From NCBI GenBank assembly GCA_964550425.1, contig CAZJZB010000004.1, positions 1 through 63,261 on the forward strand: DNA of 63,261 nt, written 5' to 3'. Both the position numbers and the translations under genes were made by a program. The stretch is from an uncultured Candidatus Saccharibacteria bacterium. Its GTDB lineage: Bacteria > Patescibacteriota > Minisyncoccia > Phycocordibacterales > Phycocordibacteraceae. The notes below the pieces were generated by a model that worked only from the letters and a program-made list of their open reading frames with translations, was not told where the DNA came from and made no database searches. Positions within the stretch are counted from its first letter, which is position 1, and each line of letters starts with the position of its first letter. Of the stretch, positions 3,165 through 52,084 are shown in pieces.

Positions 3165-3165
3165 T

Positions 3166-3453: not shown

Positions 3454-3454
3454 T

Positions 3455-3979: not shown

Positions 3980-3991
3980 TTATAGAAACAC

Positions 3992-4279: not shown

Positions 4280-4367
4280 TTCTCCGATATCCCCACGGGG
4301 TGAGAGGGTATAGTTGACTCTGTTTCCAGGGACGTTACAATTACCCCATTATCCACTTATCAACACT

Positions 4368-4751: not shown

Positions 4752-5021
4752 ATGCCCGTTCTCAACGAGTTTCTCCAGAAAGTCGTCGTGGAGGTCGTCA
4801 ATCCGATTATCCTGCTGCTCGTCGCAGGAGCGTTTATTGTGTTCTTGTGGGGCGTATTTGAGTTTATCCGACAGGCGGGAGATGAAGGGAAGCGCGAGGA
4901 GGGCAAGAGCGCCATTCTCTATGGCCTCATAGGCCTCGTCATCATCTTCGGTGCTTACGGCATTATCAATCTAGCTCTCGGGACCTTCGGTATCCCGACA
5001 ATTCAGAAAATTTCGAAGTGA
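4752..5021 (+). CDS. pilin-like small 2-TM protein, paralog 6
   Basis: Shared module NPIILLLVAGAFIVFLWG...GDEGKREEGKSAILYGLIGLVIIFGAYGIIN. The start directly follows the previous stop. Confidence 0.6.
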   Translation: MPVLNEFLQKVVVEVVNPIILLLVAGAFIVFLWGVFEFIRQAGDEGKREEGKSAILYGLIGLVIIFGAYGIINLALGTFGIPTIQKISK

Positions 5022-25613: not shown

Positions 25614-25614
25614 A

Positions 25615-37153: not shown

Positions 37154-37750
37154 ATGGACTCACAACAGAAACGTAATTTCCAGAAAATTGTCTCATGGGT
37201 TTTGGGCGGCGGTCTGACGATTGCAGCGATCGGAGGTCTTATATGGTTCGTTGCGACACGACCTCCCATTCCGGAATCTGAAATCATTTCGAAAAAAGGC
37301 ATCCACTGGCATTCAGAACTTACTATCTATATGAAAGGAGTAAAACAAGAAATCCCGGCAAATATCGGCATTGGCGCTGTCCATCAGCCGATACATACGC
37401 ATGACGCGATAGGAACGATACATCTTGAGTTCCAGGGACTGGTTCGCAAACAGGATATTACTCTTGGTCAATTCTTCAAAAATTGGGGCAAGGATATGCA
37501 ATCATTCGGATCGAATATGCGACCGAGCGATGAGCGAGGAAGTACTGAGGCCAGCAGGTCGAATATGCGACCGAGCGATGAGCGAGGAAGTACTGAGGCC
37601 AGCAGGTCGAATATGCGACCGAGCGATGAGCGAGGAAGTACTGAGGCCAGCAGGCCGAATGTGAGAATGACCGTCAACGGCGAAGAAAACATTGAGTACG
37701 AGAACTACGTCATGCACGACAAGGACATCATCGAGTTGCGCTTCGAATAA
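37154..37750 (+). CDS. membrane-anchored protein with a His-rich motif and a 3x16-aa tandem repeat insert
   Basis: TM anchor, the motif HWHSELTIY...HQPIHTHDAIGTIHLE, then SNMRPSDERGSTEASR three times. Confidence 0.55.
   Translation: MDSQQKRNFQKIVSWVLGGGLTIAAIGGLIWFVATRPPIPESEIISKKGIHWHSELTIYMKGVKQEIPANIGIGAVHQPIHTHDAIGTIHLEFQGLVRKQDITLGQFFKNWGKDMQSFGSNMRPSDERGSTEASRSNMRPSDERGSTEASRSNMRPSDERGSTEASRPNVRMTVNGEENIEYENYVMHDKDIIELRFE
37511..37654 (+). repeat. perfect 48-bp x 3 tandem repeat (in frame)
   Basis: tcgaatatgcgaccgagcgatgagcgaggaagtactgaggccagcagg is repeated three times without mismatch, followed by a degenerate partial unit. Confidence 0.9.
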
Positions 37751-37771: not shown

Positions 37772-39877
37772 ATGAAAAATTCCCACGATACACATTCATA
37801 TACTTGTCCGATGCATCCGGAGATTGTGAGAAATGTGGCTGGCATGTGCCCGGAGTGCGGGATGAATCTCATCCCGACCGATGCAAAGAAAACTGACGGG
37901 CACGAAGAGCACAATAAGCACGCAGGCCATCAAACCGAATCGTTCCTGAGGAAGTTTTGGGTTGCTTTTGCGCTTACTATTCCGATTTTCTTTTATTCGG
38001 AAATGGCGAAAATGATTTTTAACATACAGGCACCGGAGTTCCCCGGATCGCAGTATGTTTTCCTCGCTATTGGAAGTTTCGTCTTCTTCTATTGCGGATG
38101 GATTTTCCTCGCGAGTGCGTACCGCGAACTGCAGGCCCGATTGCCCGGGATGATGACACTCATCGCGATTGCCATCACGGCCGCGTACCTCTACAGTTTC
38201 TTTTCAATACTTCTGGGCGGGCATCACGATCTATTGTTTGAACTCTCATCGCTTATCGCCATCATGCTTCTGGGGCATTGGATAGAGATGAAGTCGGTGC
38301 AGGGCGCCCAGGGAGCGTTACGGGAGTTGGCAAAGCTCTTGCCCGATACAGCAGAAGTCATGAGAGGGAATAAGACCGAGATCATACCTCTCGGCGAACT
38401 TTGGGCGGGCGATGTTGTGTTGATAAAGCCGGGGGCAAAAATCCCCGCTGATGGAAAAATCATCGAGGGGAGATCGGATATCAATGAATCCGTCATTACT
38501 GGTGAATCAAGACCGGTGGAAAAATCTACAGGTGCGATGGTCATCGCCGGCTCCATTAATGGCGATGGAAGCATCAAAGTAGAAATAGAAAAGATAGGCG
38601 AGCACACATTTCTTGCCGGGGTTATGCGACTTGTTGCCGATGCGGAAGCGTCTAAGTCGCGTCTTCAGATGCTCTCGGATCAAGCGGCGTTCTATCTCAC
38701 CATTATTGCGATTGTGGTCGGCACGATTACTTTTGGCGTATGGATTCTAGTCGGAGCGGGAATCGTGATAGCAACCGAGCGGCTTGTCGCAGTTCTTGTC
38801 ATTACCTGTCCGCACGCTCTCGGGCTCGCAGTTCCTCTGGTCGCATCGATTTCAACCACGATGGCAGCGAAGAACGGCTTGCTTGTGAAAGAGCGCCGCG
38901 CGCTTGAAGCGGCTCGAAATATCGATATCGTCTTATTTGATAAAACAGGGACACTTACCAAAGGGGAATTCGGCGTAGATGCAGTCATTGCAAATGGCGG
39001 CGTTACCGAAGATGCTGTTCTCAAGATTGCGGCTTCGATTAACAACAATTCGGAACATCCATTGGCGAAGGCAATGGTGCGGGAGGCAGAAAAAAGAAAC
39101 ATCTCCCCGGTTCCGGTAAAAGATTTTTCCCGAGTCGCCGGTAAGGGAACAAGGGGAATCATTGAACAGAGCGAAACGTATGTCGGTAATGATTATTTTC
39201 TTACAGAAAACAATATAGTAATTTCAAACGAGTATCAAAATCAAATAGATACGCTATCAAAAGAAGGGAAAACGGTCATTCATGTGATTTCGGATAAAAA
39301 ACTTCTCGGCAGTATCGCGCTTGCGGATATTATCAGGGAAGAATCGCGCGAGGCGATTCAAACCCTGAAGAATCTCGGCGTCAAAACAGCGATGATCACC
39401 GGTGATTCGGAGGATGTTGCTTCGTGGGTAGCTGGAGAATTGGGCATTGACGAGTATTTTGCCAAAGTTATGCCAGGCCAAAAGGCCGAAAAAGTCAGAT
39501 TGCTCCAAAGCAAAGGCAAAAAAGTAGCGATGGTTGGAGACGGCATTAATGACGCTCCGGCTCTTACTCAAGCGGACCTCGGCATCGCGATTGGTGCCGG
39601 CACAAATGTCGCTATTGAATCAGCCGGGATTATTTTGGTAAAAAATGACCCTCGAGATATTCCGAAGATCATTAAGCTCTCAAAGCTTACCTACGCCAAG
39701 ATGATTCAGAATCTCTTTTGGGCGACCGGGTACAATGTGGTCGCCATTCCGCTTGCGGCCGGCGTACTGGCATCCAAAGGTATCGTATTGGAGCCGGCAA
39801 TCGCAGCGGTACTCATGAGCGTTTCAACGGTTATTGTGGCAATCAACGCCGTACTTCTTCGCCGCAAAGCGTTATAA
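37772..39877 (+). CDS. copper-translocating P1B-type ATPase, CopB-like (CPH motif)
   Basis: N-terminal YTCPMHPE...CPECGM metal-binding finger and a His-rich stretch. Motifs TM CPH (VITCPHALG), DKTGTLT, GDGINDAP and MSVSTVIVAINA. Confidence 0.85.
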   Translation: MKNSHDTHSYTCPMHPEIVRNVAGMCPECGMNLIPTDAKKTDGHEEHNKHAGHQTESFLRKFWVAFALTIPIFFYSEMAKMIFNIQAPEFPGSQYVFLAIGSFVFFYCGWIFLASAYRELQARLPGMMTLIAIAITAAYLYSFFSILLGGHHDLLFELSSLIAIMLLGHWIEMKSVQGAQGALRELAKLLPDTAEVMRGNKTEIIPLGELWAGDVVLIKPGAKIPADGKIIEGRSDINESVITGESRPVEKSTGAMVIAGSINGDGSIKVEIEKIGEHTFLAGVMRLVADAEASKSRLQMLSDQAAFYLTIIAIVVGTITFGVWILVGAGIVIATERLVAVLVITCPHALGLAVPLVASISTTMAAKNGLLVKERRALEAARNIDIVLFDKTGTLTKGEFGVDAVIANGGVTEDAVLKIAASINNNSEHPLAKAMVREAEKRNISPVPVKDFSRVAGKGTRGIIEQSETYVGNDYFLTENNIVISNEYQNQIDTLSKEGKTVIHVISDKKLLGSIALADIIREESREAIQTLKNLGVKTAMITGDSEDVASWVAGELGIDEYFAKVMPGQKAEKVRLLQSKGKKVAMVGDGINDAPALTQADLGIAIGAGTNVAIESAGIILVKNDPRDIPKIIKLSKLTYAKMIQNLFWATGYNVVAIPLAAGVLASKGIVLEPAIAAVLMSVSTVIVAINAVLLRRKAL

Positions 39878-40276: not shown

Positions 40277-41818
40277 ATGAAAAACAAAACACTTTTTATA
40301 TTCATTGGAATGATAATTCTCGGCGTGTTTGCGCTTGGAAATGAAAAGTTTCTAGCGCCTCCTATATCTGCCGTAGAAAGTTCAGTCGTTGATCTAAAGG
40401 ACGGCGATACTTTTGACCTCACCGCCGCATACGTCACAAAAGAAATCAGTGGAAGAAGTCAGAGGATGCTTGCCTATAATGGCTCCATCCCCGGACCGAC
40501 TATTCGTATCACGCAAGGTGCAGAAATTACTATCAACTTCAAAAACAATACCGACCTACCCGCGCTTCTTCACTCGCATGGCGTACGCATGGACAACGCC
40601 TTTGACGGTTCGCAATTACAACAAAAAGAAATGGAGCCGGGCGAGTTATTTTCCTATAAACTCAAGTTTCCTGATGCGGGCGTCTATTGGTATCATCCGC
40701 ACGCAAAGGAAGTATACGGACAGGGTCTGGGGCTCTATGGCGCTTTTATCGTTACCTCAACTGATTCGGCGTATTTCCCGCCTGTGAATCGTGAAGTACC
40801 GCTCTTTCTGTCCGATGTTCCTGTCGAAAATGGCAACATTGCGCTTGATAAAAACAAAACAAGCCATTCTCTGATGGGACACTACGGCAATGTGATGCTC
40901 ATAAACGGAGAAGAAAACTATATCCTTCGCGCAAAGTCGGGAGAGGTTGTGAGAATGTATGTGGTAAACGCGGCAAATGCCCGACCGTTTAATTTTGCGA
41001 TTAATGGATTAAAACTCAAACGCATCGGCGCGGATAGCGGCGCATACGAAAAAGCATCGTTTGTGGACAGTGTGGTACTTGGCCCGTCAGAGAGAGTAAT
41101 CGTTGATGTATTCTTGTCTATACCCGGATCGTACGAAATACAAAACAAAACTCCCGAGAAGACCTATTCTTTAGGGACTATTGTTGTGGGGAATGAAAAG
41201 ACAGACGCTTCTTACAAAAGCGAATTTAGTGTGCTTCAAAATAATGCCGCGACGACACGAAGTGTCGATTCATTCCGCGCATATTTCAACACGGAGCCGG
41301 ACAAACAGATAAAACTCTCGATAAACTTTATGGGAAATATGCAGAGCATGATGGGTGGCGGACATATGATGCCCGACGGCACGGTGATGGGAGGATCTAT
41401 GATGATGAGCGCGCCCAAAGAAGGGATTGAGTGGGAAGACGATATGCAGATGATGAATCAGATGGCAAACGCCAATATGGTGAAGTGGAAAATAATCGAT
41501 CAAGACACAAGCAAAGAGAATATGGATATTGACTGGTCGTTCAAACAAGGCGAACCAGTGAAGATCCGGATTTTCAACGATCCAACATCAATGCATCCAA
41601 TGCAACACCCGATCCACTTCCACGGACAGCGATTTCTCGTGATTGCTCGAAATGGGGTGACACAAACAAATCTTGTATGGAAAGATACGACCTTAGTGAA
41701 GTCGGGAGAAACGGTTGATATCATTCTCGATCCATCAAACCCGGGTACGTGGATGGCACATTGTCACATCTCGGAGCATTTGGAGGCCGGGATGATGTTC
41801 AGCTTCGAGGTGCAATAA
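40277..41818 (+). CDS. multicopper oxidase (CueO/laccase-like) with a Met-rich insert
   Basis: Copper ligand motifs HSHG, YWYHPH, HPIHFHG and HCHISEHLEAGMM. The Met-rich segment is MGNMQSMMGGGHMMPDGTVMGGSMMM. Confidence 0.85.
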   Translation: MKNKTLFIFIGMIILGVFALGNEKFLAPPISAVESSVVDLKDGDTFDLTAAYVTKEISGRSQRMLAYNGSIPGPTIRITQGAEITINFKNNTDLPALLHSHGVRMDNAFDGSQLQQKEMEPGELFSYKLKFPDAGVYWYHPHAKEVYGQGLGLYGAFIVTSTDSAYFPPVNREVPLFLSDVPVENGNIALDKNKTSHSLMGHYGNVMLINGEENYILRAKSGEVVRMYVVNAANARPFNFAINGLKLKRIGADSGAYEKASFVDSVVLGPSERVIVDVFLSIPGSYEIQNKTPEKTYSLGTIVVGNEKTDASYKSEFSVLQNNAATTRSVDSFRAYFNTEPDKQIKLSINFMGNMQSMMGGGHMMPDGTVMGGSMMMSAPKEGIEWEDDMQMMNQMANANMVKWKIIDQDTSKENMDIDWSFKQGEPVKIRIFNDPTSMHPMQHPIHFHGQRFLVIARNGVTQTNLVWKDTTLVKSGETVDIILDPSNPGTWMAHCHISEHLEAGMMFSFEVQ

Positions 41819-42642: not shown

Positions 42643-43704
42643 ATGTCATTATTGATACGAGATGCAAGTATGGGTATTGTTGCACTCGCACTTATTTACG
42701 CCGCCAGCTTCTCAAACCTCTTTGCAACGGAATACCGATCAGAGGCGGCCGACGCGCCGGAACGTTTTATTCCGCTGCCAGTACTGGACAAGGCCGATTA
42801 TGATGCGCGACTCCTCGCGCTTGCACATGTCGCGACGTCTACTATGGCGACCTCGACCGCGGACATGGCGTCAAGCACGCCGCGCCTCTGGCCGGTAAAG
42901 ACGGTCTATCCGAACGCCGACGCCATACTGCCATTCAAACGCATCGTCGCCTACTACGGCAATTTTTATTCTAAAGGGATGGGAGTATTGGGAGAATATC
43001 CGACCGACCAAATGCTCGCGATGCTCGCAAGCACAACGGCGAAGTGGGCCGTAGCCGATCCAACGACGCCAGTGGTGCCGGCCATTCACTACATCGCAGT
43101 GGTGGCGCAGGCGACTGCGGGTAAGGAAGGAAAATATGTTCTACGGATGCCGGACGACCAGATAGAGCACGCGCTCGATCTCGCGGACCGGATACACGGC
43201 ATCGTATTTCTCGATGTGCAGGTGGGGAAGAGTACTCTGCAACATGAGCTCCCGATGCTTGAGAAATATCTGAAGATGCCTCAGGTGCATCTCGCCATTG
43301 ACCCGGAATTCTCAATGAAATTCGGCAACCGGCCCGGTACGGTCATCGGCACCTTTGACGCGGATGATGTGAACTACGCCGCCGAATATCTCGCGGGTCT
43401 CGTGCGGGACAATCATCTGCCGCCGAAGATTCTCGTCATACATCGCTTTACGCAGAAAATGGTGACCAATTACAAAAAGATACAGCCGCTACCGGAGGTT
43501 GAGATAGTGATGGATATGGACGGTTGGGGATCGCAGGAAAAGAAAAAGGGAACCTATAACCGGGTCATCGCGCCGGAACCGGTGCAATTCACGGGCATCA
43601 AGCTATTTTATAAAAACGATATTAAGCCGCCTTCCACCGGTCTCTTGACGACCGAAGAAGTGCTTAACCTCACCCCAGCACCAATCTATATTCAGTATCA
43701 ATAA
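42643..43704 (+). CDS. hypothetical exported protein
   Basis: N-terminal hydrophobic anchor or signal and a 353-aa globular region. I cannot assign a family with confidence. Confidence 0.5.
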   Translation: MSLLIRDASMGIVALALIYAASFSNLFATEYRSEAADAPERFIPLPVLDKADYDARLLALAHVATSTMATSTADMASSTPRLWPVKTVYPNADAILPFKRIVAYYGNFYSKGMGVLGEYPTDQMLAMLASTTAKWAVADPTTPVVPAIHYIAVVAQATAGKEGKYVLRMPDDQIEHALDLADRIHGIVFLDVQVGKSTLQHELPMLEKYLKMPQVHLAIDPEFSMKFGNRPGTVIGTFDADDVNYAAEYLAGLVRDNHLPPKILVIHRFTQKMVTNYKKIQPLPEVEIVMDMDGWGSQEKKKGTYNRVIAPEPVQFTGIKLFYKNDIKPPSTGLLTTEEVLNLTPAPIYIQYQ

Positions 43705-45186: not shown

Positions 45187-45804
45187 TTAGACCGCGCTTT
45201 TTTTGCGAGCGAGATTTATGAGGATAGGGGAGAAAGAGAGTACGATGATAACCAGCGAGAGTGGGAGTATGTATTTTTCACTATTCGGAATCACCGAACC
45301 GAGAAAGTATCCGAGCGCTATCATACCCATGCCCCAGAGGAATCCGCCGAGTATGTTATAGGCGAGAAATACTCGATATTTCATAGAGCCGGCGCCAGCG
45401 AGAATCGGCGCGATAGTACGCACAATAGGGACAAATCGCGCGAGTATAATCGCGCGTCCGCCATACTTCTGGTAGAAAAGCTCGGTGCGTTTCAGATATT
45501 CCTGTTTGAAAAAGCGTGAATCCTCGCGTAAGGAAAGGCGGTTGCCCGCCTTGGCGCCGAACCAATATCCTACCGAGTCGCCGAGTATCGCCGCGACTAC
45601 TACCACTAGTATAAGAGAACTCGGAGCAAGAAATCCTCCGGCAGATAGGAGACCGGCTGCGAAGAGGAGAGAATCACCAGGAAAGAATATGCCGATAAGA
45701 AGTCCGCTCTCGGCGAAAACAATCAATGCGATGCCAAGATAACTCCCCGTCTTCACTATGGCGAGCGGGTCGAGATGCACAGTTGCGAGTAGAAAGTCGA
45801 GCAT
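45187..45804 (-). CDS. DedA family membrane protein
   Basis: FAESGLLIGIFFPGDSLLFAAGLL and RFVPIVRTIAPILAGAG are typical of DedA. I chose the start at MLDFLL (45804). Confidence 0.75.
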   Translation of the reverse strand: MLDFLLATVHLDPLAIVKTGSYLGIALIVFAESGLLIGIFFPGDSLLFAAGLLSAGGFLAPSSLILVVVVAAILGDSVGYWFGAKAGNRLSLREDSRFFKQEYLKRTELFYQKYGGRAIILARFVPIVRTIAPILAGAGSMKYRVFLAYNILGGFLWGMGMIALGYFLGSVIPNSEKYILPLSLVIIVLSFSPILINLARKKSAV

Positions 45805-45827
45805 TCCGATGCAGTATACTAGAACGA

Positions 45828-48602
45828 ATGGAATCGACACCAAAGTTGTCCACGCCCGAGGAGGAGCTCGCGTATTTACGCGAGCAAGTAGCGCGCAAGG
45901 AAGCGGAGCTTGCCGAAAAGGGAAGGGTGCCTGACTTGCTCGAGCGCACACACATCATTTCCGAACAGATCAAGGAGCATCATGCCGCACCCGAGGACAT
46001 ACTCGTACCCGAGTATCGCATCAGCGAAGCGACGAAGCGCGGCGAGGCGGATGCGATACTTACCGAACTCAATCTCGACGGAAGCGAGAAAGCGATAAAG
46101 GGTCTGCAGCAAACGATGGAAGAGAAGGGAATAAAGAACGCGCTTTCAGTGCTCGAGAAACTCCATGACCCGCATATCGCTGACGACTTCCATCGCTACC
46201 TCGTGCGCTATGTCGCGGCAGGGCTCACCGCTCCCGGCATTGACGAGAAGGCGCCGCGCTTTCAGGCGCTTAAAATGACGCTGTATGAAATCGCGCTTCC
46301 CGAGCCCAAAAGTGCGGAACAGGGCGGACGTACGAAAACGCTCAAAGAGCTTATTTCCGGCATGGAACAATTCTACGCGGGACTCTTATCAGTTGAGGAT
46401 GCTGCGAGCGGCGAGCCGCACTACTATGCGCTCGAGCTCGCGGTGCCGGCAAACAGTCCCGAGCTCCAGTTCTACGCGGCGGTGCCAAATGGAAAATGCA
46501 ATCTTTTTGAGAAACAACTCCTCGCCATATTTCCCGATGCGCATTTGACGCAGCAACCCTTTGACTACAACGTCTTCGCTCAGGGCAGAGTCGCGCTCGC
46601 TTCGGTCGCGCGCTTCGCCGAGAATCCCTCCCTCCCCTTGAAAGATTATGGAGATTTTGATTATGATCCTTTGAACGCCATAACCAATGCTTTTGCAAAA
46701 ATAGAGCGCCAAGGGGAGGGAGCGGCGCTTCAGATTATCATTGAGCCGAGGGCGGAGCGGCATGTCAAGCATTACCGAAAAATTCTTCAGGCCCTGCGCA
46801 AGGGAGAGAAGCATTCGTCGGCATTCAGTACACCAGAGACCATGCTCGGTGAATTTGCACGCGATATTGGTCGAACTCTTTTTTCAAACAAACCGAAGGA
46901 CGAACAGAAAGCGAAGGAGGCCGAGACCCGCCAGATAGAGGCGAACAAGATATACATAGAACAGGTGGAGAAGAAAACCGCAGCGCCTATCGTCGGCGCG
47001 ACGATACGGCTCGTTGTTTCTTCGAGCAACGAGCGCAAGGCGGGGCAAGTGCTTGGCGAGCTTGAGGCGGCGTTTAATCAATTTGCGAATACGCAAGGGA
47101 ACAAGTTGCTGTTTACGCGTCCGTCTGCCGGCAAACAGGCGCAGAACGTTTTCAACGACTTTTCCTTTCGTCTGCCCAGTTCTTCAGCTCTTCCTTTGTC
47201 GCTGCGCGAACTGACGACTATGTATCATTTCCCGCCCTCCGGTATCGAGTCCTCGCCGCATCTGAAACAAGCGCGCTTCACCCATGCGAGCGCGCCGCTC
47301 TCGCTGCCGCACACAGGCGTACTTCTCGGTATCAATAATTATCGCGGACAGACGACAAACATCTATCTCGATCCTGAAGACCGTTTGCGCCATCTCTACA
47401 TCATTGGCCAGACCGGTACCGGCAAGACCGGACTTATGAAGTCGATGATTATTCAGGACATCAAACATGGAGAGGGATGCTGCTTTATTGATCCGCACGG
47501 TTCCGACATCTTGGATGTTCTCGCTGCGGTGCCGCCCGAGCGGTACAAGGACGTTATTTATTTCGACCCCGCTGATCTCTCGCGCCCATTCGGTCTTAAC
47601 TTCCTCGAATACGATCTCTCGCGGCCGGAGCAGAAGACCTTTATCGTGAACGAACTCCTGATGATTTTCCGGCGGCTCTACGGCGATGTGCCGGAGAGCA
47701 TGGGTCCGGCTTTTGAACAATATTTCCGCAACGCGACTCTTCTCGTGATGGAGGACCCGGGCAGCGGTTCGACCATTCTCGATATTGCGCGTGTGCTTAG
47801 CAACAGCGAATTCCGTCGCGAGAAGCTCGCAAAAAGCATGAATCCGGTCGTGAACCAATTCTGGAACGAGATAGCGACGAAGGCCGGCGGCGATGCCGCG
47901 CTCGAAAATATCGTCCCGTACATCACCAATAAGTTTGATGATTTCACGGCGAACGACTTTATTCGTCCCATAGTAGGGCAGCAAGAATCGTCGTTTAAGT
48001 TCCGCGAAGTGATGGACACGAAGAAGATACTGCTTATCAATCTCTCCAAAGGCCGCCTCGGCGAAAAGAACGCGAACCTTCTCGGGCTCATCATCGTCGG
48101 GAAACTCTTTATGGCGGCGCTTTCTCGTGCGGATAATCCGCGTGCCGCGCATATACCCTTCTATCTCTACATCGACGAGTTCCAGAATGTTACAACCGAT
48201 TCCATTCCCGGCATTCTCTCCGAAGCGCGCAAGTACAAACTCTCGCTTTCCATGGCGCATCAGTTTCTTGCGCAGATAGAGGAAAAGACGCGCGAGGCGG
48301 TATTCGGCAACGTGGGCAACATTGCGGTCTTCCGCGTGGGCGAAGAGGACGCAGAATTCTTTGCGAAGCAATTCGCGCCGGTTTTTGAAACGCTCGATTT
48401 CGTCAACATAGAAAACCGCAATGCGTATGTGAAGATTCTTGCTGGCGGCGTACCGCAGAAGCCGTTTGATATGAAAACGCCGGATTTGCCGCAGGCAAAT
48501 CCAGCGCAAATAGACGACCTTATTCACCTCTCGTCACTCACCTACGGCCGCAATCGTGCTACAGTTGAGAACATGATTCGGGAACGTTACCTTTCGCAAT
48601 AA
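45828..48602 (+). CDS. VirD4/TraG/TraD-like (T4SS coupling protein-type) P-loop ATPase with a ~480-aa N-terminal domain of unknown function and no TM segment
   Basis: Walker A IIGQTGTGKTG, then FIDPHGS, Walker B FYLYIDEFQN, and SLSMAHQFLAQI. The ATG at 45828 is 23 nt from the divergent dedA start. Confidence 0.6.
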   Translation: MESTPKLSTPEEELAYLREQVARKEAELAEKGRVPDLLERTHIISEQIKEHHAAPEDILVPEYRISEATKRGEADAILTELNLDGSEKAIKGLQQTMEEKGIKNALSVLEKLHDPHIADDFHRYLVRYVAAGLTAPGIDEKAPRFQALKMTLYEIALPEPKSAEQGGRTKTLKELISGMEQFYAGLLSVEDAASGEPHYYALELAVPANSPELQFYAAVPNGKCNLFEKQLLAIFPDAHLTQQPFDYNVFAQGRVALASVARFAENPSLPLKDYGDFDYDPLNAITNAFAKIERQGEGAALQIIIEPRAERHVKHYRKILQALRKGEKHSSAFSTPETMLGEFARDIGRTLFSNKPKDEQKAKEAETRQIEANKIYIEQVEKKTAAPIVGATIRLVVSSSNERKAGQVLGELEAAFNQFANTQGNKLLFTRPSAGKQAQNVFNDFSFRLPSSSALPLSLRELTTMYHFPPSGIESSPHLKQARFTHASAPLSLPHTGVLLGINNYRGQTTNIYLDPEDRLRHLYIIGQTGTGKTGLMKSMIIQDIKHGEGCCFIDPHGSDILDVLAAVPPERYKDVIYFDPADLSRPFGLNFLEYDLSRPEQKTFIVNELLMIFRRLYGDVPESMGPAFEQYFRNATLLVMEDPGSGSTILDIARVLSNSEFRREKLAKSMNPVVNQFWNEIATKAGGDAALENIVPYITNKFDDFTANDFIRPIVGQQESSFKFREVMDTKKILLINLSKGRLGEKNANLLGLIIVGKLFMAALSRADNPRAAHIPFYLYIDEFQNVTTDSIPGILSEARKYKLSLSMAHQFLAQIEEKTREAVFGNVGNIAVFRVGEEDAEFFAKQFAPVFETLDFVNIENRNAYVKILAGGVPQKPFDMKTPDLPQANPAQIDDLIHLSSLTYGRNRATVENMIRERYLSQ

Positions 48603-48605
48603 CGT

Positions 48606-51194
48606 ATGAAAGAACCAGGATTCCCGCCGCCCGGAGGTAAAAAAAAGCTCGAAGACGCAGATACAGTCGACTATAAACGTGCCGCACATCGCCTTGCGGA
48701 AACACTCTATCGCAAGCCGCAGGAAAAGGGTGCTGCCGTTAATAATGCCGCCGAAGGGGGAATTATTGAACCCAAACAGAATGAAGAGTCAAAAGTTAGC
48801 CAAATGCCCGACTCTATCCAGAGTTTGCGGGCGGAAATACGAGATTTAGAAGCAGAGGCGACGCAGCCGGGGGCGGATAAGAATATTGAGCCGGAAATTC
48901 TCAAGCGTGAGGATAAACTCCGTACACTCGAAACGGCAAAACATGCGTCCGCAAAACATGAAGCAAAAGCCAATCGGATAAAGGAAATTCGTCAGCGCCT
49001 CTCGACGCTTGAATACCAAGCGGCGCATCCGGCCGAATATTCGCGCAATCACGATGAATTGGAAAATGAAGTCCTGACGGCTGAAAAAGAGTTGAGAGAT
49101 TTGGAATCGGCCGGGCGGCCTGTAGAGGGTACGCCGAAAGAGTTGCGTAATAAGTTTCGCGACAAATTACGCAAACTCATCGGTGGTGTGACAGAACGTC
49201 TCAACATGGGTGAGCGCGCCGGACGTTTACAAGCATATTTCGCAGAACGTTCGAAAAGTTTGAATGAGAAAGCGGAGGGGTATGGACCGAAGATTGCGGC
49301 ATTCATCGGTTCAGGGATCGAAAAATACAATAAGCTGCATTGGCTGACGAAACTTACCATCACGGGCGGTCTTGTCGCCGGCGTTTCGCTCACCTCGATG
49401 GTTGCACCGATCGTCTCCGGGATACTTGCTACAACTCTTTATGGCCAGCGCGTCGTCGGTGCGGCCGGTTTCGCCATAAATAAACGTAAGAAGATTGACG
49501 CGAAAATCGCAGAGAACTCTAAATATTGGCTAGCGAACAAATCGGAGACCATGAAAAATACCTATGCGACCGTATTCGCTGCGGTATATATGGGAGGTAC
49601 GGCTTTTGCCGTGCACGAAGGTGTCGAGGCGCTCAATGCGCTCGGAGTGAATGAATGGTTTGGCAACGCGCCTGGACCCGACGCTCCTCCACAGGTCGTC
49701 GCGCCCACAAAACCGGAAATTCCTGATGCATCACCGGCTCCAGCACCGACGGAAACACCAGCGCCCGAAACGCTTGTTCCTGATGAATCAGCCACCGAAT
49801 TGACAGAAGCACGAGCCGTCACAGATCGCGCGTTTGCTAATCTTAAAGAACGTGTAGCTGAAGCTCAAAAGTTGGCTTCCGAACAACAAGTCGCCATCGA
49901 CAAGGCGCTTGAAGCAGCCAATCCACCTGAAACGACTGGAGTTCCCGATGATTTGGGTACAACCGGAGCCGTTGCGGGTCTTGATGCAGACCAGAGACCA
50001 AGTGATGCTCTGGATAAAATCAAAGCGGAGAAGTTTGAAATTGAACAACATGTAGCTGAATCCGATGCTGCTTTGGATAGATATAATGCAGCTAACGATC
50101 TTACTGACGAATTCAATGCACGTGTCGCGGAACTTGATACTAAAATTGAAGACGCCTTGGGGCGGCACAATGCTCTTTTGGATGAATATGGAGCGGCTGG
50201 ACGCGAGGCCATAGAATCAAACCAAAGAGCCAATCAACTTCATACTGATGCAAATAGTGCGTTTGAGAATGCCAAAGAACATATGGAAAAGTATAAAGAT
50301 ATAATAAAAAATACAAAGGATAGTGACATCGATGCGAACGAAGCGCAAATACGCGCGGAAATACGGGGAGATCAAGAGGTGCTTGAACGTGATGCTGAAG
50401 AAGCGGCGAAGGCCTATGACGATGCTGAAGCCATCATTGACGATAAGTTTAAGCGCGCCGAATATCTTAAATCTCAAGCCGCAGATGCCAAGAACGCTTA
50501 TGAAGATCTCGCGGCTCAAAAGAAAGCCGCTTTTGAAGCATTAAATGCCGACAAGCCGTTAGAAAGTATCTTGCCTGCTTCGCCGGCTGAACAGCAGAGT
50601 GACAGTGGGGATATATCCGGAGCAGAGCAAGCAGGTAGAACTTCAGAGTCCCCATTCGGACGCGACGCCAATGGACATCCTTTCCCGTCTGAGCAAGAGG
50701 CAAAGGATTATGACGATCTCATACATAAAGGGATACGCGATCCGAGAGAAACGGGTGCGTGGCCTCCCGAACCCTCACAAGAAAAAGGATTTCTCGATAA
50801 AATTTCAGATTGGTTTAAAGAAGATAAGAATACAACAGAAATGAGCGATACTCATTTTGAAACAAACGCATCAGGATTAGCGGTCGATACCGCCCACGCA
50901 AATGCGTATCTTGATGCACAAGGCAATCACATCATTTTCGGCGGTTCCCTTGAAGATCGGATGAAAACGGCGCTTCAATTAGCCGCCAAAGATCGTTCCA
51001 TCGCCGTGTATTTCGACTCAACACGGCCCGGCGGCCTATTCGGATGGTTCCAGGAGCATCATTTAAGCAAAGCATATTCTCCTGAAGGTTCAGCCCTGCC
51101 GCAAATTGTAGACGACATAGCCGATGCAACACTGCGAGGTGTCAATCTCCCAAGCATTGATGATCTTAAAGAAGTGTATAAACCTATTAAATAA
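48606..51194 (+). CDS. large membrane protein: cytoplasmic coiled coil, ~3 TM helices, Pro-rich linker, long acidic coiled coil, C-terminal globular domain
   Basis: 862-aa ORF starting 3 nt after the ATPase stop. TM region at about aa 245-345, a PAPAPTETPAPE linker, and Asp/Glu/Ala-rich heptad-like segments. Confidence 0.6.
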   Translation: MKEPGFPPPGGKKKLEDADTVDYKRAAHRLAETLYRKPQEKGAAVNNAAEGGIIEPKQNEESKVSQMPDSIQSLRAEIRDLEAEATQPGADKNIEPEILKREDKLRTLETAKHASAKHEAKANRIKEIRQRLSTLEYQAAHPAEYSRNHDELENEVLTAEKELRDLESAGRPVEGTPKELRNKFRDKLRKLIGGVTERLNMGERAGRLQAYFAERSKSLNEKAEGYGPKIAAFIGSGIEKYNKLHWLTKLTITGGLVAGVSLTSMVAPIVSGILATTLYGQRVVGAAGFAINKRKKIDAKIAENSKYWLANKSETMKNTYATVFAAVYMGGTAFAVHEGVEALNALGVNEWFGNAPGPDAPPQVVAPTKPEIPDASPAPAPTETPAPETLVPDESATELTEARAVTDRAFANLKERVAEAQKLASEQQVAIDKALEAANPPETTGVPDDLGTTGAVAGLDADQRPSDALDKIKAEKFEIEQHVAESDAALDRYNAANDLTDEFNARVAELDTKIEDALGRHNALLDEYGAAGREAIESNQRANQLHTDANSAFENAKEHMEKYKDIIKNTKDSDIDANEAQIRAEIRGDQEVLERDAEEAAKAYDDAEAIIDDKFKRAEYLKSQAADAKNAYEDLAAQKKAAFEALNADKPLESILPASPAEQQSDSGDISGAEQAGRTSESPFGRDANGHPFPSEQEAKDYDDLIHKGIRDPRETGAWPPEPSQEKGFLDKISDWFKEDKNTTEMSDTHFETNASGLAVDTAHANAYLDAQGNHIIFGGSLEDRMKTALQLAAKDRSIAVYFDSTRPGGLFGWFQEHHLSKAYSPEGSALPQIVDDIADATLRGVNLPSIDDLKEVYKPIK

Positions 51195-51220: not shown

Positions 51221-51529
51221 ATGATGTCACCTATGCACGATGAATTGACAGCTGCGATTGCCACCGATCTCGGTATTGCGGATCTCCCGTCCGAGGAGCA
51301 GCAGGCGCTCATCGCGCAGTTCGGCGAGGTGGCGCTCAAGGCAGCGACGCTTGCGGTCGTGGGCAAGCTCGAGGGCGGCAAGCAAGAAGAATTCGTGAAG
51401 ATCTCCGAAGCGGGCGATGCGACGGCGCTCAGAGCGTTCCTTGATCGCGAGGTTCCCGCTCATGAGGCAATCGCGAAGCAGGCGGTTGCCGAGGAGGTCG
51501 GGCGATTTAAAGATTTTCAAAAACCATAA
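51221..51529 (+). CDS. small acidic helical protein (resembles the CPR-restricted DUF5663 type; from memory, unverified)
   Basis: 102 aa containing LGIADLPSEEQQALIAQFGEVALKAATLAV. Confidence 0.45.
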   Translation: MMSPMHDELTAAIATDLGIADLPSEEQQALIAQFGEVALKAATLAVVGKLEGGKQEEFVKISEAGDATALRAFLDREVPAHEAIAKQAVAEEVGRFKDFQKP

Positions 51530-51556: not shown

Positions 51557-52084
51557 ATGAAACCAACCCAGACAGGCATTGCTGTGGCACTCGCACTCGT
51601 AGTGGTCGCCATACTCTTCTTTTCTCAGGACTTTTCGCCTTTTAGTCAATTGCCGTCGCAAACAGGGACGACCGAACAAGGTCAGGCATTACAAGCTGCT
51701 GCTATCCAATATCAACCTACATCAATCACTATGCCTACCGATGCTACACAACTCCAGACGACCGATGATGTTATCGGTACCGGTGCCACTGCCGCAGTAG
51801 GCGATAGCGTAACTGTGAACTATGTCGGTTCGCTCACCAACGGAACCGTCTTTGACGCTTCCGCCAATCATGGAACGACTGGCTTCACATTCAATCTCGG
51901 CGCAGGGCAGGTTATCAAGGGTTGGGACCTCGGCATCGTCGGTATGAAAGAAGGAGGCAAGCGCACACTTGTCATTCCCGCGCCGCTCGCATACGGCGAC
52001 CAGGCAGTCGGCCCAGTCATTCCCGCAAATGCAACGCTCATCTTCCAAGTGGAACTCTTGAAAGTGCAAAAACCGACTCGCTAA
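51557..52084 (+). CDS. membrane-anchored FKBP-type peptidyl-prolyl cis-trans isomerase
   Basis: Motifs GDSVTVNYVGSLTNGTVFDAS, GAGQVIKGWDLGIVGMKEGGKR and LIFQVELLKV. Confidence 0.85.
   Translation: MKPTQTGIAVALALVVVAILFFSQDFSPFSQLPSQTGTTEQGQALQAAAIQYQPTSITMPTDATQLQTTDDVIGTGATAAVGDSVTVNYVGSLTNGTVFDASANHGTTGFTFNLGAGQVIKGWDLGIVGMKEGGKRTLVIPAPLAYGDQAVGPVIPANATLIFQVELLKVQKPTR

What the first reader, a model, noticed from the sequence alone, without database searches (positions are those of the whole stretch)
45828..51194. Two-gene module: a TM-less VirD4/TraG-like ATPase with a large unknown N-terminal domain, coupled to an 862-aa TM coiled-coil protein
The 924-aa ATPase has coupling-protein-type motifs: Walker A GQTGTGKT, FIDPHG, Walker B LYIDEFQN, and HQFLAQI. 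It lacks the usual N-terminal TM anchor and instead has a ~480-aa soluble domain that I cannot assign. Three nt after its stop begins a protein with a cytoplasmic coiled coil, ~3 TM helices, a Pro-rich extracellular linker, ~350 aa of acidic coiled coil and a C-terminal globular domain. It could supply the missing membrane anchor and an extracellular stalk. Pilin paralogs and the pilin-SLT fusion are elsewhere in the window, but no VirB4, VirB6 or VirB8-10 genes are visible. This may be a minimal, non-canonical secretion, DNA-uptake or attachment machine rather than a standard T4SS.
Basis: partly seen in the sequence, partly recalled or inferred. Interest (0 to 1): 0.65.

Follow-up and report, generated by a model that had tools for sequence, protein, structure and literature searches.

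The report
Orphan T4SS-type ATPase plus stalk protein
A highly conserved chromosomal motor ATPase of a candidate-phyla-radiation bacterium resembles the coupling protein of conjugation machines but has no membrane anchor. Instead it carries a VirB4-like front domain, and in this lineage only it is followed by a fast-evolving membrane 'stalk' protein, so it is an unusual variant of a known motor family rather than a proven new secretion machine.

Summary
Gene 45828-48602 encodes a 924-aa ATPase without transmembrane helices, and all four quoted motifs are present. Three nucleotides later, 48606-51194 encodes an 862-aa protein with an N-in/C-out membrane topology.

The "unassignable" N-terminal domain is Pfam DUF8128. 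Its AlphaFold model matches only the N-terminal domain of VirB4 (TrwK). The C-terminal half is a coupling-protein (T4CP, TrwB/VirD4) motor with an all-alpha domain.

The ATPase is a vertically inherited core gene of Paceibacteria. Across 80 species it is 62-89% identical, about as conserved as UvrB.

A large membrane partner starts 0-19 nt downstream in 61 of 70 evaluable related loci. Only its membrane core and a roughly 95-aa C-terminal domain are conserved. The partner was lost, together with a small DUF5663 gene, at scattered tree positions. It is absent in other orders, where the ATPase follows SecY-Adk-Map.

The partner is therefore a lineage-specific accessory, not an obligatory anchor. 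The window also holds six VirB2-like T4SS pilin genes. Distant full-length relatives occur in Bacillus phages and plasmids.

Most likely this is a membrane-recruited hexameric translocase linked to the dispersed patescibacterial T4SS. A T4SS-independent DNA translocase is a serious rival. I class it as a new variant of a known kind.

The parts
45828..48602 (+). 924-aa TM-less ATPase (DUF8128 + T4CP-type motor)
   Evidence: The ORF is. Pfam TraG-D_C scores 29.1 bits (threshold 22) and DUF87 26 bits (threshold 23.2). Homologues carry PF26449 = DUF8128. The AlphaFold2 model has mean pLDDT 82.
45828..46262 (+). N-terminal helical extension, about aa 1-145
   Evidence: The AlphaFold2 model is all-helical here. 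Many distant relatives, and the phage and plasmid homologues, only align from about aa 145-195 onward.
46263..47267 (+). DUF8128 core, about aa 146-480, an alpha/beta domain with a VirB4-NTD-like fold
   Evidence: The N-terminal model has pLDDT 85 and pTM 0.80. The only significant PDB matches are 14 TrwK/VirB4 chains with E from 1e-5 to 3e-3. The next, unrelated hit has E = 0.066. In BFVD it matches Bacillus phage proteins at E = 8e-15 and a 'component of type IV transporter system' at E = 7e-5.
47295..48599 (+). T4CP-type nucleotide-binding domain, about aa 490-924
   Evidence: Walker A lies at 47406-47429 and Walker B at 48165-48188. Foldseek aligns it to TrwB with target-normalised TM-score 0.60-0.67 and rmsd about 4.5 A. 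It also matches HerA, Cag-beta and DotL. TrwB and DotL are the best profile hits in the PDB.
47628..47948 (+). All-alpha domain inserted between Walker A and Walker B (aa 601-707)
   Evidence: The model shows six helices here. Pfam TrwB_AAD_bind matches 22 of 24 diverse family members, best E = 9.6e-11.
48606..51194 (+). 862-aa N-in/C-out membrane stalk protein (the partner)
   Evidence: The ORF starts 3 nt after the ATPase stop. Positional orthologues are present in 61 of 70 related loci. It matches no Pfam or NCBIfam family.
49098..49691 (+). Conserved partner core, aa 165-362: cytoplasmic juxtamembrane segment plus three predicted TM helices (TM region 49341-49625)
   Evidence: This is the only region hit by most relatives in BLAST. 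An iterative profile recovers it in 50 of 61 partners, counting the window's own. The conserved residues are GExYNK before TM1 and QRxxG after TM2.
49662..50645 (+). Pro-rich linker (aa 353-400) and acidic extracellular stalk, with heptad periodicity over about aa 487-648
   Evidence: Composition is. The heptad score is 0.48 against 0.215 +/- 0.043 in shuffles. Length and sequence are hypervariable among orthologues.
50823..51191 (+). Conserved C-terminal extracellular domain of the partner (about 95-120 aa)
   Evidence: An iterative profile finds it at the extreme C-terminus of 51 of 61 partners, counting the window's own. The alignment is A4. It matches nothing in the PDB or Pfam.
51221..51529 (+). 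102-aa DUF5663-like small acidic helical protein, third gene of the module
   Evidence: The window copy matches Pfam DUF5663 only weakly. The hit is marked 'weak' in the relatives L001 and L085. It is detected in 53 of the 60 loci first scored partner-positive, and also in L079, whose partner ORF was found later. Two more loci have contig-truncated copies. It is absent from all 7 compact partner-less loci. It also lies downstream of the ATPase in L085, which is from another order.
51557..52084 (+). Signal-anchored FKBP peptidyl-prolyl isomerase, same strand, 27 nt downstream; a conserved neighbour and not necessarily part of the module
   Evidence: Pfam FKBP_C is reported in the relatives. An N-terminal hydrophobic segment is present. 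The gene is retained next to the ATPase even where the partner is lost.
45187..45801 (-). Divergently transcribed DedA/VTT membrane protein; a conserved neighbour in the close clade only
   Evidence: It is absent from this position in the other orders.

Best explanation
The 924-aa protein is a soluble or peripheral member of the VirB4/VirD4 branch of the FtsK-HerA ATPases. It joins a coupling-protein-type motor to a VirB4-like N-terminal docking domain (DUF8128), which takes the place of the usual transmembrane anchor. The motor consists of a Walker A/B nucleotide-binding domain, an all-alpha domain and a TraG-D_C region.

It most likely forms a hexameric ring at the cytoplasmic face of the membrane and uses ATP to feed a polymer into an envelope channel. 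DNA or a DNA-protein complex is more likely as substrate than protein alone.

The favoured cellular context is the dispersed patescibacterial type IV secretion system. VirB2-like pilin genes of that system lie in this same window, and its gene clusters typically lack a coupling protein.

In this clade the ATPase gene is tightly coupled to two further genes. One encodes a three-TM stalk protein with a conserved juxtamembrane/TM core, a variable coiled-coil stalk and a conserved tip domain. The other encodes a small DUF5663 protein. I read these as lineage-specific accessories: an extra docking site or envelope-spanning element, and an adaptor. They are not the essential anchor.

What is shown: the domain composition, the fold similarities, the conservation, the synteny and the pattern of partner loss. 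What is inferred: the hexamer, membrane docking through the N-terminal domain, the nature of the substrate, the link to the T4SS, and any physical contact with the partner or DUF5663.
For: - Motifs are present and no TM helix is predicted.
- The ATPase half is of the T4CP type:
  - Pfam TraG-D_C and DUF87 score above threshold.
  - Across 24 diverse relatives, TrwB_AAD_bind hits 22, TraG-D_C 22, DUF87 21 and T4SS-DNA_transf 7, with no VirB4-specific family.
  - Foldseek aligns the C-terminal half to TrwB with TMt 0.60-0.67.
- The N-terminal domain looks like that of VirB4:
  - The full model's best PDB match is full-length TrwK/VirB4 over about 900 columns.
  - The N-terminal domain on its own matches only TrwK/VirB4.
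  - It also matches a viral protein annotated as a 'component of type IV transporter system'.
- The gene behaves as a core gene:
  - More than 2,245 homologues were found, and the top 120 are 80-89% identical.
  - Median identity to the window is 82%, against UvrB 85% and TGT 79%.
  - The surrounding genes are housekeeping genes.
- The partner is adjacent in 61 of 70 loci at 0-19 nt. Its core and tip domains are conserved. DUF5663 is present and absent together with it.
- T4SS pilin genes lie in the same window.
- Literature:
  - T4CP homologues occur in 2,918 of 3,035 Patescibacteria genomes, and only 148 of 5,713 are near virB4 (PMC12102498).
  - The essential Southlakia T4SS cluster lacks a recognisable coupling protein (PMC10633639).
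  - A TM-less T4CP recruited by a small membrane protein has been proposed before, for pIP501 TraJ and TraI (PMC12857230).
- A TM-less 913-aa homologue on a Bacillus subtilis plasmid lies a few genes upstream of TcpC/TcpD/TcpE-type conjugation genes.
Against: - No VirB4, VirB6, VirB8 or relaxase gene lies in the 63-kb window.
- In the literature T4CP homologues are more widespread than VirB4 (96% against 80% of genomes). The Southlakia t4cp homologue was reported as not essential although the T4SS is essential. I did not check whether that homologue carries DUF8128.
- The conservation is far higher than is usual for T4SS parts.
- In other orders the gene sits at the end of the ribosomal-protein/SecY/Adk/Map cluster.
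- Full-length relatives exist in tailed Bacillus phages, which have no T4SS.
- TM-scores for the N-terminal domain against VirB4 are low (0.30-0.33), and all the PDB hits come from a single protein.
- No interaction with the partner, with DUF5663 or with T4SS parts was tested.
Confidence: 0.4

Rival explanations
1. The ATPase is a housekeeping DNA translocase that works independently of the T4SS. A coupling-protein-derived motor would have been taken over for a core process such as chromosome segregation or resolution (an FtsK-like role), DNA uptake, or DNA repair. The stalk protein and DUF5663 would then be clade-specific additions, or unrelated.
For: - The protein is about as conserved as UvrB.
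- It appears to be a single, vertically inherited locus flanked by UvrB/UvrA here and by the spc-SecY-Adk-Map operon and NDK in other orders.
- In three of six distant loci it stands alone with no partner.
- T4CP homologues occur in 96% of Patescibacteria genomes against 80% for VirB4. The published remark is that exaptation 'cannot be ruled out'.
- Phage homologues lie among DNA-metabolism genes such as a ligase and a sigma factor.
- Weak FtsK_SpoIIIE hits appear in 9 of 24 relatives.
- Only 9 distant hits, all to the motor domain alone, were found in 2.9 million viral contigs, so the CPR gene is not carried on a mobile element.
Against: - Profile matches favour T4CP families over FtsK.
- The N-terminal domain resembles the part of VirB4 that docks on the T4SS membrane platform.
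- No FtsK gamma domain or other DNA-sequence-reading module was seen.
- Whether these genomes lack FtsK or ComFA was not testable here.
Confidence: 0.3
2. The ATPase, the stalk protein and possibly DUF5663 form a self-contained minimal machine for secretion, DNA uptake or attachment. The stalk protein supplies both the membrane anchor and an extracellular conduit or adhesin.
For: - The spacing is tight (3 nt here, 0-19 nt in 59 of 61 loci) and adjacency is kept in 87% of related species.
- The cytoplasmic juxtamembrane/TM core is conserved next to a conserved ATPase.
- The partner and DUF5663 are lost together.
- The extracellular coiled coil of about 160 aa or more is long enough to cross a cell wall.
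- The tip domain is conserved.
Against: - The ATPase stays 80-86% identical in seven species that lack the partner, and these losses are scattered on the tree.
- No TM partner is present in six loci from other orders.
- Three TM helices in a single protein are not an obvious channel.
- The partner evolves very much faster than the ATPase (median 31% identity over 22% of its length, against 82% over the full length). That fits a surface accessory better than a core stator.
Confidence: 0.12
3. The adjacency has no functional meaning. The 862-aa protein would be an independent, rapidly evolving surface fibril or adhesin gene that merely sits in a variable slot downstream of a core gene.
For: - The slot after the ATPase varies across orders. 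It holds a 53-aa ORF, a 424-aa soluble coiled-coil protein, a CYTH protein, or nothing.
- The partner is hypervariable and dispensable.
- No promoter-like or terminator-like signal above chance helps define the operon.
Against: - A spacing of 0-19 nt was kept in nearly all 61 loci while the protein sequence diverged almost beyond recognition.
- The conserved part of the partner is the cytoplasmic/TM core, not only the exposed part.
- DUF5663 is lost together with the partner, and DUF5663 reappears next to the ATPase in another order.
Confidence: 0.15

Closest known systems
Type IV coupling proteins (VirD4, TrwB of R388, TraD, DotL, Cag-beta)
   Same: The nucleotide-binding domain has Walker A/B motifs, an inserted all-alpha domain and a TraG-D_C region. 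TrwB and DotL are the best PDB sequence-profile hits. Foldseek gives TMt 0.60-0.67 to TrwB. Pfam T4CP families are hit across the whole family.
   Different: There is no N-terminal transmembrane domain. In its place is a roughly 480-aa soluble domain. The gene is chromosomal, vertically inherited and very strongly conserved. No relaxase or mating-pair genes lie beside it. NCBIfam T4CP equivalog scores are far below their cut-offs.
VirB4 (TrwK of R388)
   Same: Both have a two-domain layout: a soluble N-terminal domain of about 400-480 aa followed by a RecA-like ATPase, with no TM helices. Full-length TrwK is the best Foldseek match for the whole model. It is also the only significant PDB match for the N-terminal domain alone.
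   Different: There is no sequence-level match to VirB4 families. NCBIfam VirB4 gives E = 0.02-0.06, and no Pfam VirB4 family is hit in 24 relatives. TM-scores are low (0.3). The motor half is closer in sequence to T4CPs. According to the literature, Patescibacteria carry a separate canonical VirB4 near dnaA/dnaN.
Two-part coupling protein of pIP501 (TM-less TraJ, proposed to be anchored by the small membrane protein TraI)
   Same: It is a T4CP without its own TM helices, encoded next to a membrane protein that is proposed to tether it (PMC12857230).
   Different: TraI is a small protein with two TM helices on a conjugative plasmid. Here the neighbour is a 465-1267-aa stalk protein that is dispensable in several species. 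No homology between the two was tested or found.
Uncharacterised DUF87 proteins of Bacillus phages and plasmids (SP-10 gp203, phage G gp156, phrog_5156, and the 913-aa protein of B. subtilis plasmid CP120602.1)
   Same: These show the same TM-less architecture of a DUF8128-like N-terminal domain plus a T4CP-like motor. hhalign gives 99.8-99.9% probability over 646-690 columns. phrog_5156 matches at E = 1.4e-63. The N-terminal domain matches in BFVD at E = 8e-15.
   Different: Identity is only 21-25%. They lack the first 145-190 aa or so. They sit on mobile elements. Their function is also unknown.
FtsK/SpoIIIE and TcpA-type translocases
   Same: They belong to the same superfamily of hexameric DNA pumps. 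Weak FtsK_SpoIIIE Pfam hits appear in 9 of 24 relatives and in the Bacillus plasmid homologue.
   Different: There are no N-terminal TM helices, no linker and no gamma domain. The T4CP profiles score better.
VirB10/TonB-type envelope-spanning proteins (as an analogy for the partner's layout only)
   Same: The layout is shared: a cytoplasmic N-terminus, a membrane span, a Pro-rich spacer, an extended region and a C-terminal globular domain. This resemblance is from my own knowledge and is a lead, not a test.
   Different: The partner probably has three TM helices rather than one. Neither the full partner nor its C-terminal domain matched any Pfam family above its curated cut-off, and the C-terminal domain had no significant match to PDB sequences. 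Patescibacteria are monoderm and lack VirB10.

Membership tests
Type IV coupling protein (VirD4/TrwB/TraG/TraD) | P-loop nucleotide-binding domain with Walker A and Walker B | tested here: met
   GQTGTGKT is at aa 527 and LYIDEFQN at aa 780. The fold aligns to TrwB with TMt 0.60-0.67.
Type IV coupling protein (VirD4/TrwB/TraG/TraD) | All-alpha domain inserted in the nucleotide-binding domain | tested here: met
   The model shows a six-helix insert at aa 601-707. Pfam TrwB_AAD_bind is below threshold in this protein (18.2 against 20.5 bits) but is hit in 22 of 24 relatives, best E = 9.6e-11.
Type IV coupling protein (VirD4/TrwB/TraG/TraD) | N-terminal transmembrane anchor (usually two helices) | tested here: not met
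   No hydrophobic 19-residue window reaches 1.6 (maximum 1.57). The N-terminal 485 aa model as a soluble domain.
Type IV coupling protein (VirD4/TrwB/TraG/TraD) | TraG-D_C / T4SS-DNA_transf signature in the C-terminal part | tested here: met
   Pfam TraG-D_C scores 29.1 bits against a threshold of 22. T4SS-DNA_transf is hit in 7 of 24 relatives, best E = 7.8e-12.
Type IV coupling protein (VirD4/TrwB/TraG/TraD) | Encoded with a relaxase and/or mating-pair-formation genes, and needed for substrate transfer | tested here: not met
   No relaxase, VirB4, VirB6 or VirB8 was found in the window. Only VirB2-like pilins are present, about 41-43 kb away, plus a pilin-SLT fusion about 30 kb away. Function was not tested.
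Type IV coupling protein (VirD4/TrwB/TraG/TraD) | Curated NCBIfam equivalog or subfamily score | tested here: not met
   SXT_TraD scores 48.7 bits against a cut-off of 366. The CD1115 VirD4-like family scores 41.3 against 250.
VirB4 ATPase | Soluble N-terminal domain of VirB4 type preceding the ATPase domain | tested here: inconclusive
   By fold, the only significant PDB hits are TrwK chains, with E = 1e-5 and probability 1.0, but TM-scores are only 0.30-0.33. There is a second hit to a viral 'component of type IV transporter system' at E = 7e-5. No sequence-profile support was found.
VirB4 ATPase | Sequence membership (TIGR00929 VirB4_CagE and the Pfam VirB4 families) | tested here: not met
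   TIGR00929 gives E = 0.059 and 11.6 bits against a cut-off of 643. No VirB4 family appears among the Pfam hits of 24 relatives.
VirB4 ATPase | Adjacent VirB3-like small membrane protein, with a position inside a T4SS cluster | tested here: not met
   The neighbours are DedA, the stalk protein, DUF5663 and FKBP. Homology of the partner's TM hairpin to VirB3 was not tested.
FtsK/SpoIIIE | Pfam FtsK_SpoIIIE motor, N-terminal TM helices and a gamma domain | tested here: not met
   This protein has no FtsK hit. Hits are weak in 9 of 24 relatives. No TM helices are predicted.
HerA-type helicase (DUF87) | DUF87 central domain; HAS-barrel N-terminal domain; NurA partner | tested here: inconclusive
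   DUF87 scores 26 bits against a threshold of 23.2, but only over aa 508-558. HerA 4d2i is a weaker fold match than TrwB. No NurA-like neighbour is present.
Pfam DUF8128 (PF26449) | Match to the family model in the N-terminal half | tested here: met
   Precomputed PF26449 hits are recorded for this protein and for essentially all listed homologues. The local Pfam copy used did not report it. A search with the N-terminal 480 aa found 848 clusters at 50% identity with E <= 1e-3.
Anti-phage defence ATPases (PADLOC mad8, DndH, HerA) | Match together with the other genes of the system in the neighbourhood | tested here: not met
   mad8 matches the ATPase domain only, at E = 4e-12. No other defence components are nearby. 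The gene is a conserved core gene in housekeeping synteny.
Pfam DUF5663 (third gene) | Match to PF18908 | tested here: inconclusive
   The window copy scores 14.2 bits against a threshold of 23.7. The orthologues in L001 and L085 are listed with a hit marked 'weak'. An iterative profile links them at E = 2e-14.

The most novel reading that the evidence does not exclude
The DUF8128 ATPase may not be a T4SS part at all. It could be a previously unrecognised core DNA (or protein) translocase of Paceibacteria that descends from the common stock of VirB4 and VirD4. In that case it might stand in for FtsK or for a competence motor. In Kaiserbacteria-like lineages it would have recruited a three-TM coiled-coil stalk and DUF5663 to form a small envelope-spanning uptake, export or attachment device of a new kind. 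Its relatives in Bacillus phages and plasmids would then be the mobile-element version of the same motor.
Probability: 0.15. Interest if true: 0.85.

Novelty: new variant of a known kind. Interest (0 to 1): 0.55.

Why it matters
Patescibacteria depend on other cells, and their T4SS is the first one shown to be essential for a bacterium's own growth. Yet its gene clusters lack a recognisable coupling protein, while 'orphan' T4CP homologues are nearly universal and unexplained (PMC12102498, PMC10633639).

This work gives one such orphan a concrete anatomy:
- it has no membrane anchor;
- it has a VirB4-like docking domain fused to a T4CP motor;
- it has core-gene status;
- it has a lineage-specific stalk protein and a DUF5663 companion.

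That turns a vague category into testable hypotheses. One can ask which platform the N-terminal domain binds, whether the substrate is DNA, and whether the gene tracks the T4SS or FtsK.

A protein that combines VirB4-like and VirD4-like halves also bears on how the two T4SS ATPases diverged. The Bacillus phage and plasmid relatives offer genetically tractable surrogates.

Tried and rejected
- **Sequence search against PDB chains.** With the single protein or with a 24-sequence profile, only the P-loop region of TrwB and DotL matched. Nothing matched the N-terminal domain.
- **Defence-system reading.** PADLOC mad8, DndH and HerA hits cover the ATPase domain only and have no system context, so I rejected this reading.
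- **Mobile-element reading.** Only 9 distant hits, all to the motor domain alone, were found in IMG/VR. The flanks are housekeeping genes in all 80 or more loci, so I rejected this for the CPR gene.
- **pLS20 coupling protein as the plasmid homologue.** I rejected this. pLS20 p48 is 786 aa with two N-terminal TM helices (PMC8557374). The TM-less 913-aa protein of CP120602.1 is a different protein.
- **Partner protein.** There is no Pfam, NCBIfam, PHROG or PADLOC family for it. Its conserved C-terminal domain matches nothing in the PDB or Pfam. The SPP1_portal hit (21.5 bits against a threshold of 25.5, in 1 of 20 members) is treated as chance.
- **Promoter and terminator scans.** Counts are no higher than in shuffled sequence, so the operon limits were not established.
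- **Literature searches.** Searches for PF26449, DUF8128 and DUF87 with 'Candidate Phyla Radiation' returned nothing. Searches for FtsK in Parcubacteria or Patescibacteria gave nothing useful.
- **Cropped-homologue alignment for the N-terminal model.** This was replaced by aligning the window's N-terminal 485 aa against full-length homologues.
- **Not possible here.** The following could not be done:
  - complex prediction;
  - a whole-genome check for VirB4, FtsK or a relocated partner.

Full report

Yes. The + strand carries an ORF at 45726-48602 and a second at 48606-51194. Homologues all start at MESTPKLSTPEEEL, and the minus-strand DedA gene occupies the sequence upstream.

The four quoted motifs lie at aa 527, 553, 780 and 811. 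No 19-residue window of the ATPase is hydrophobic enough for a membrane helix. The stop codon ends at 48602 and the next ATG is at 48606.

The 862-aa protein has these features:
- a hydrophobic block of about 43 aa at 249-291, probably a hairpin;
- a loop at 291-318 with 8 Lys and 1 Arg among 28 residues;
- a third hydrophobic segment at about 319-340;
- a stretch at aa 345-400 that is 23% proline;
- an acidic region at aa 400-720 rich in A, E and D.

By the positive-inside rule this gives an N-in/C-out topology, which is an inference. A crude heptad test supports a coiled coil over about aa 487-648 (0.48 against 0.215 +/- 0.043 in shuffles). It gives only weak support for the cytoplasmic part.

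**2. What the ATPase is**

Pfam places the C-terminal half in TraG-D_C and DUF87, both above threshold, with TrwB_AAD_bind just below. NCBIfam T4CP and VirB4 models score far below their cut-offs.

Across 24 relatives that are 35-49% identical, the Pfam counts are as follows:

| Pfam family | Relatives hit (of 24) |
|---|---|
| TrwB_AAD_bind | 22 |
| TraG-D_C | 22 |
| DUF87 | 21 |
| FtsK_SpoIIIE (weak) | 9 |
| T4SS-DNA_transf | 7 |
| Any VirB4 family | 0 |

A profile search against PDB sequences finds TrwB and DotL, both coupling proteins.

The database's precomputed annotation assigns the N-terminal half to PF26449, which is DUF8128. The domain is therefore catalogued, though without a function.

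An AlphaFold2 model built on a 98-sequence alignment reaches mean pLDDT 82. It shows a helical extension at aa 1-145 and an alpha/beta domain at aa 146-480. A RecA-like domain follows, with a six-helix insert at aa 601-707 that corresponds to the all-alpha domain typical of T4CPs.

Foldseek against the PDB ranks full-length TrwK/VirB4 of R388 first, at E = 3e-14 over about 900 aligned columns. TrwB comes next, covering the C-terminal half with TMt 0.60-0.67. HerA, Cag-beta and DotL follow.

I then modelled the N-terminal 485 aa alone (pLDDT 85, pTM 0.80). Its only significant PDB matches are 14 TrwK/VirB4 chains, with E between 1e-5 and 3e-3. The next hit is unrelated, at E = 0.066.

In the viral structure library the N-terminal domain matches Bacillus phage proteins at E = 8e-15. 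It also matches a protein annotated as a 'component of type IV transporter system' at E = 7e-5.

The TM-scores against VirB4 are low (about 0.3), so I rate 'VirB4-type N-terminal domain' as probable, not proven. The picture is a hybrid: a VirB4-like front half and a VirD4-like motor, with no membrane anchor.

**3. Distribution and conservation**

The protein has more than 2,245 homologues in the 5.8-billion-protein collection. The best 120 are 80-89% identical over the full length. They come from Kaiserbacteria, Paceibacteria, Parcubacteria and Minisyncoccia records.

The N-terminal domain alone finds 848 clusters at 50% identity. Full-length members are 800-1,120 aa.

A scan of one genome per species returned 80 loci with ATPases 62-89% identical. 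Median identity to the window in the close clade is shown below.

| Gene | Median identity to window |
|---|---|
| UvrB | 85% |
| ATPase | 82% |
| TGT | 79% |
| DedA | 72% |
| DUF5663 | 70% |
| FKBP | 64% |
| Partner | 31% (over 22% of its length) |

The window itself is plain chromosome. It encodes ClpB, TopA, RelA/SpoT, IF-2, SerRS, Dus, DnaX, ParB, DprA, UvrA/B/C and Ddl. Only 9 distant hits, all to the motor domain alone, exist in 2.9 million viral contigs.

The gene is therefore a vertically inherited core gene, not part of a mobile element.

**4. Is the pair a module?**

Within the clade, yes.
- Of 70 loci with enough downstream sequence, 61 carry an ORF of 465-1,267 aa right after the ATPase gene. 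In 59 it starts 0-19 nt after the ATPase stop, in one it starts at 89 nt, and in L079 it overlaps the stop.
- Hydropathy analysis of 60 of these ORFs found a hydrophobic block in the middle of 58.
- A direct protein search found only 13 homologues of the partner.
- Iterative profiles over 61 partner sequences (the 60 analysed ORFs plus the window's own) recover two conserved islands. One is the juxtamembrane/TM core, in 50 of 61. The other is a C-terminal domain of about 95 aa, in 51 of 61.
- Everything else varies in both length and sequence. The cytoplasmic N-terminal part ranges from 94 to 680 aa, and the extracellular stalk also varies.
- The C-terminal domain matches nothing in Pfam or the PDB.

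A third gene belongs with them. A DUF5663-like protein of about 100 aa (51221-51529) was detected in 53 of the 60 loci first scored as partner-positive. It is also present in L079, whose partner ORF was only recognised later, and two more loci have contig-truncated copies. It is found in none of the seven compact loci that lack the partner.

Those seven species (L005, L006, L020, L023, L030, L034, L064) keep an ATPase that is 80-86% identical, followed directly by FKBP. They are scattered over a neighbour-joining tree of the ATPase, which argues for several independent losses. The tree is poorly resolved, however.

Outside the clade the answer is no. Six loci with ATPases 45-51% identical all place the gene between the ribosomal-protein/SecY/Adk/Map cluster and NDK. 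What follows the ATPase in these loci is:
- NDK directly, in three loci;
- a CYTH protein, in one;
- a 424-aa soluble coiled-coil protein plus a 97-aa protein, in one;
- a 53-aa ORF plus DUF5663, in one.

The stalk protein is thus a lineage-specific, dispensable addition. It cannot be the universal missing anchor.

**5. Context that bears on function**

- The window holds six tandem VirB2/TrbC-like T4SS pilin genes at 2643-5021. It also holds a pilin-SLT (VirB2-VirB1-like) fusion at 14510-15676. T4SS parts are therefore dispersed in this genome.
- A phylum-wide survey found VirB4 in 2,417 of 3,035 Patescibacteria genomes. It found 5,713 VirD4-type T4CP homologues in 2,918 genomes, only 148 of them near virB4. 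It noted that the Southlakia t4cp homologue is not essential and that exaptation cannot be excluded (PMC12102498).
- The essential Southlakia T4SS cluster lacks a recognisable coupling protein and relaxase (PMC10633639).
- A TM-less T4CP tethered by a small membrane protein has been proposed for pIP501 TraJ and TraI (PMC12857230).

**6. Unexpected relatives**

phrog_5156 matches aa 210-919 at E = 1.4e-63. Bacillus phage SP-10 gp203 (843 aa, annotated 'hypothetical') aligns to the family profile over 690 columns at 99.8% probability. The alignment includes the DUF8128 core.

A TM-less 913-aa 'DUF87' protein on a 65-kb Bacillus subtilis plasmid aligns over 646 columns at 99.9% probability. It lies a few genes upstream of TcpC/TcpD/TcpE-type conjugation genes.

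This plasmid protein is not the pLS20 coupling protein, which is 786 aa with two TM helices (PMC8557374).

The two-domain, anchor-less architecture is therefore older and wider than the CPR. It occurs both next to conjugation genes and in phages that have no T4SS.

**7. How it most likely works**

Shown: the domain make-up, the fold similarities, the lack of an anchor, the conservation, the synteny and the loss pattern.

Inferred: the protein forms a hexameric ring, like TrwB, VirB4, FtsK and HerA. The ring is brought to the membrane by protein contacts of its VirB4-like N-terminal domain. It uses ATP to thread a substrate toward an envelope channel. DNA or a nucleoprotein is the likelier substrate, given the T4CP all-alpha domain.

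My preferred context (confidence 0.4) is the dispersed patescibacterial T4SS, with the stalk protein and DUF5663 as clade-specific accessories.

The main rival (0.3) is a T4SS-independent housekeeping DNA translocase. It is supported by the extreme conservation, the spc-operon position, the wider distribution of T4CP homologues than of VirB4, and the phage relatives.

**8. Novelty and verdict**

Orphan T4CP homologues of Patescibacteria are known in bulk, and DUF8128 is a catalogued domain. I found no paper mentioning PF26449 or DUF8128, and none combining DUF87 with the 'Candidate Phyla Radiation'.

None of the papers I searched or read describes these points:
- the VirB4-like N-terminal domain;
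- the core-gene status;
- the stalk/DUF5663 module;
- the phage and plasmid relatives.

This is a new variant of a known kind, of moderate to good interest (0.55). The function is unresolved, and the decisive tests are phyletic profiling, complex prediction, and biochemistry or Bacillus surrogate genetics.

Noticed in passing
window 2643-5021 (+): Six tandem small genes (2643-3164, 3166-3453, 3455-3979, 3992-4279, 4314-4751, 4752-5021) encode paralogous VirB2/TrbC-like T4SS pilins. Two were scanned and hit Pfam T4SS_pilin/TrbC above threshold. The others share the same hydrophobic C-terminal pattern by eye. The array resembles the pilin arrays reported for Patescibacteria.
   Followed up: partly
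window 14510-15676 (+): A 388-aa fusion of a weak T4SS_pilin match (aa 67-133) with an SLT lytic transglycosylase domain (aa 242-346), that is, a VirB2-VirB1-like fusion.
   Followed up: partly
window 33575-35164 (+): A secreted 529-aa protein made of about eight tandem Cys-rich repeats of about 47 aa (GPGGCxGxECxxYCE...CLAFAEExGLIS), with no Pfam hit. It sits in a block with DsbA-like thioredoxins, a small polytopic membrane protein, a Cu-type P-type ATPase (37772-39877) and a multicopper oxidase (40277-41818). This may be a copper/thiol-redox island.
   Followed up: no
window 37154-37750 (+): A 198-aa membrane-anchored protein containing three exact copies of a 16-residue repeat, each beginning SNMRPSDERGSTEASR, followed by a degenerate fourth.
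   Followed up: no
window 25615-26496 (-) and 24810-25658 (-): DprA (DNA-processing protein A, a competence and recombination mediator) lies next to an endonuclease/exonuclease/phosphatase-family protein. This is relevant to the natural competence of CPR bacteria.
   Followed up: no
L085, L086, L087, L097, L098, L099 (ATPase at about 5001 or 8001 in each): In other Paceibacteria orders the DUF8128 ATPase gene directly follows the ribosomal-protein/SecY/Adk/Map cluster on the same strand and precedes NDK, DUF2238 and an RNase J-like beta-CASP gene. That is an unusual place for a T4SS-type ATPase.
   Followed up: partly
L084 3897-6428 (Bacillus phage SP-10 gp203); L100 8596-11337 (B. subtilis plasmid CP120602.1): Uncharacterised TM-less proteins of 843 and 913 aa on a Herelleviridae phage and a Bacillus plasmid share both the DUF8128-like domain and the T4CP-like motor with the CPR protein. 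The plasmid copy has a long acidic C-terminal tail and lies upstream of TcpC/D/E-like genes.
   Followed up: partly
L039 and L046 (both JAKAJB01, bin WY3.bin61); L014 and L062 (both JANLIU01, bin S40-23): Two separate contigs of the same metagenome bin each carry a copy of the ATPase (79-85% identical to the window). This could be a real duplication, strain mixture or bin contamination.
   Followed up: no
L002 2399-3442 and 17505-20172: The partner-less 993-kb Kaiserbacteria chromosome carries several transposase genes (rve, DDE_Tnp_IS1595) close to the ATPase neighbourhood, unlike the window.
   Followed up: no
window 42643-43704 (+): A 353-aa signal-anchored protein with no Pfam hit. A gene of the same length sits at the same position in the closest relative (L001, 3780-4841).
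   Followed up: no
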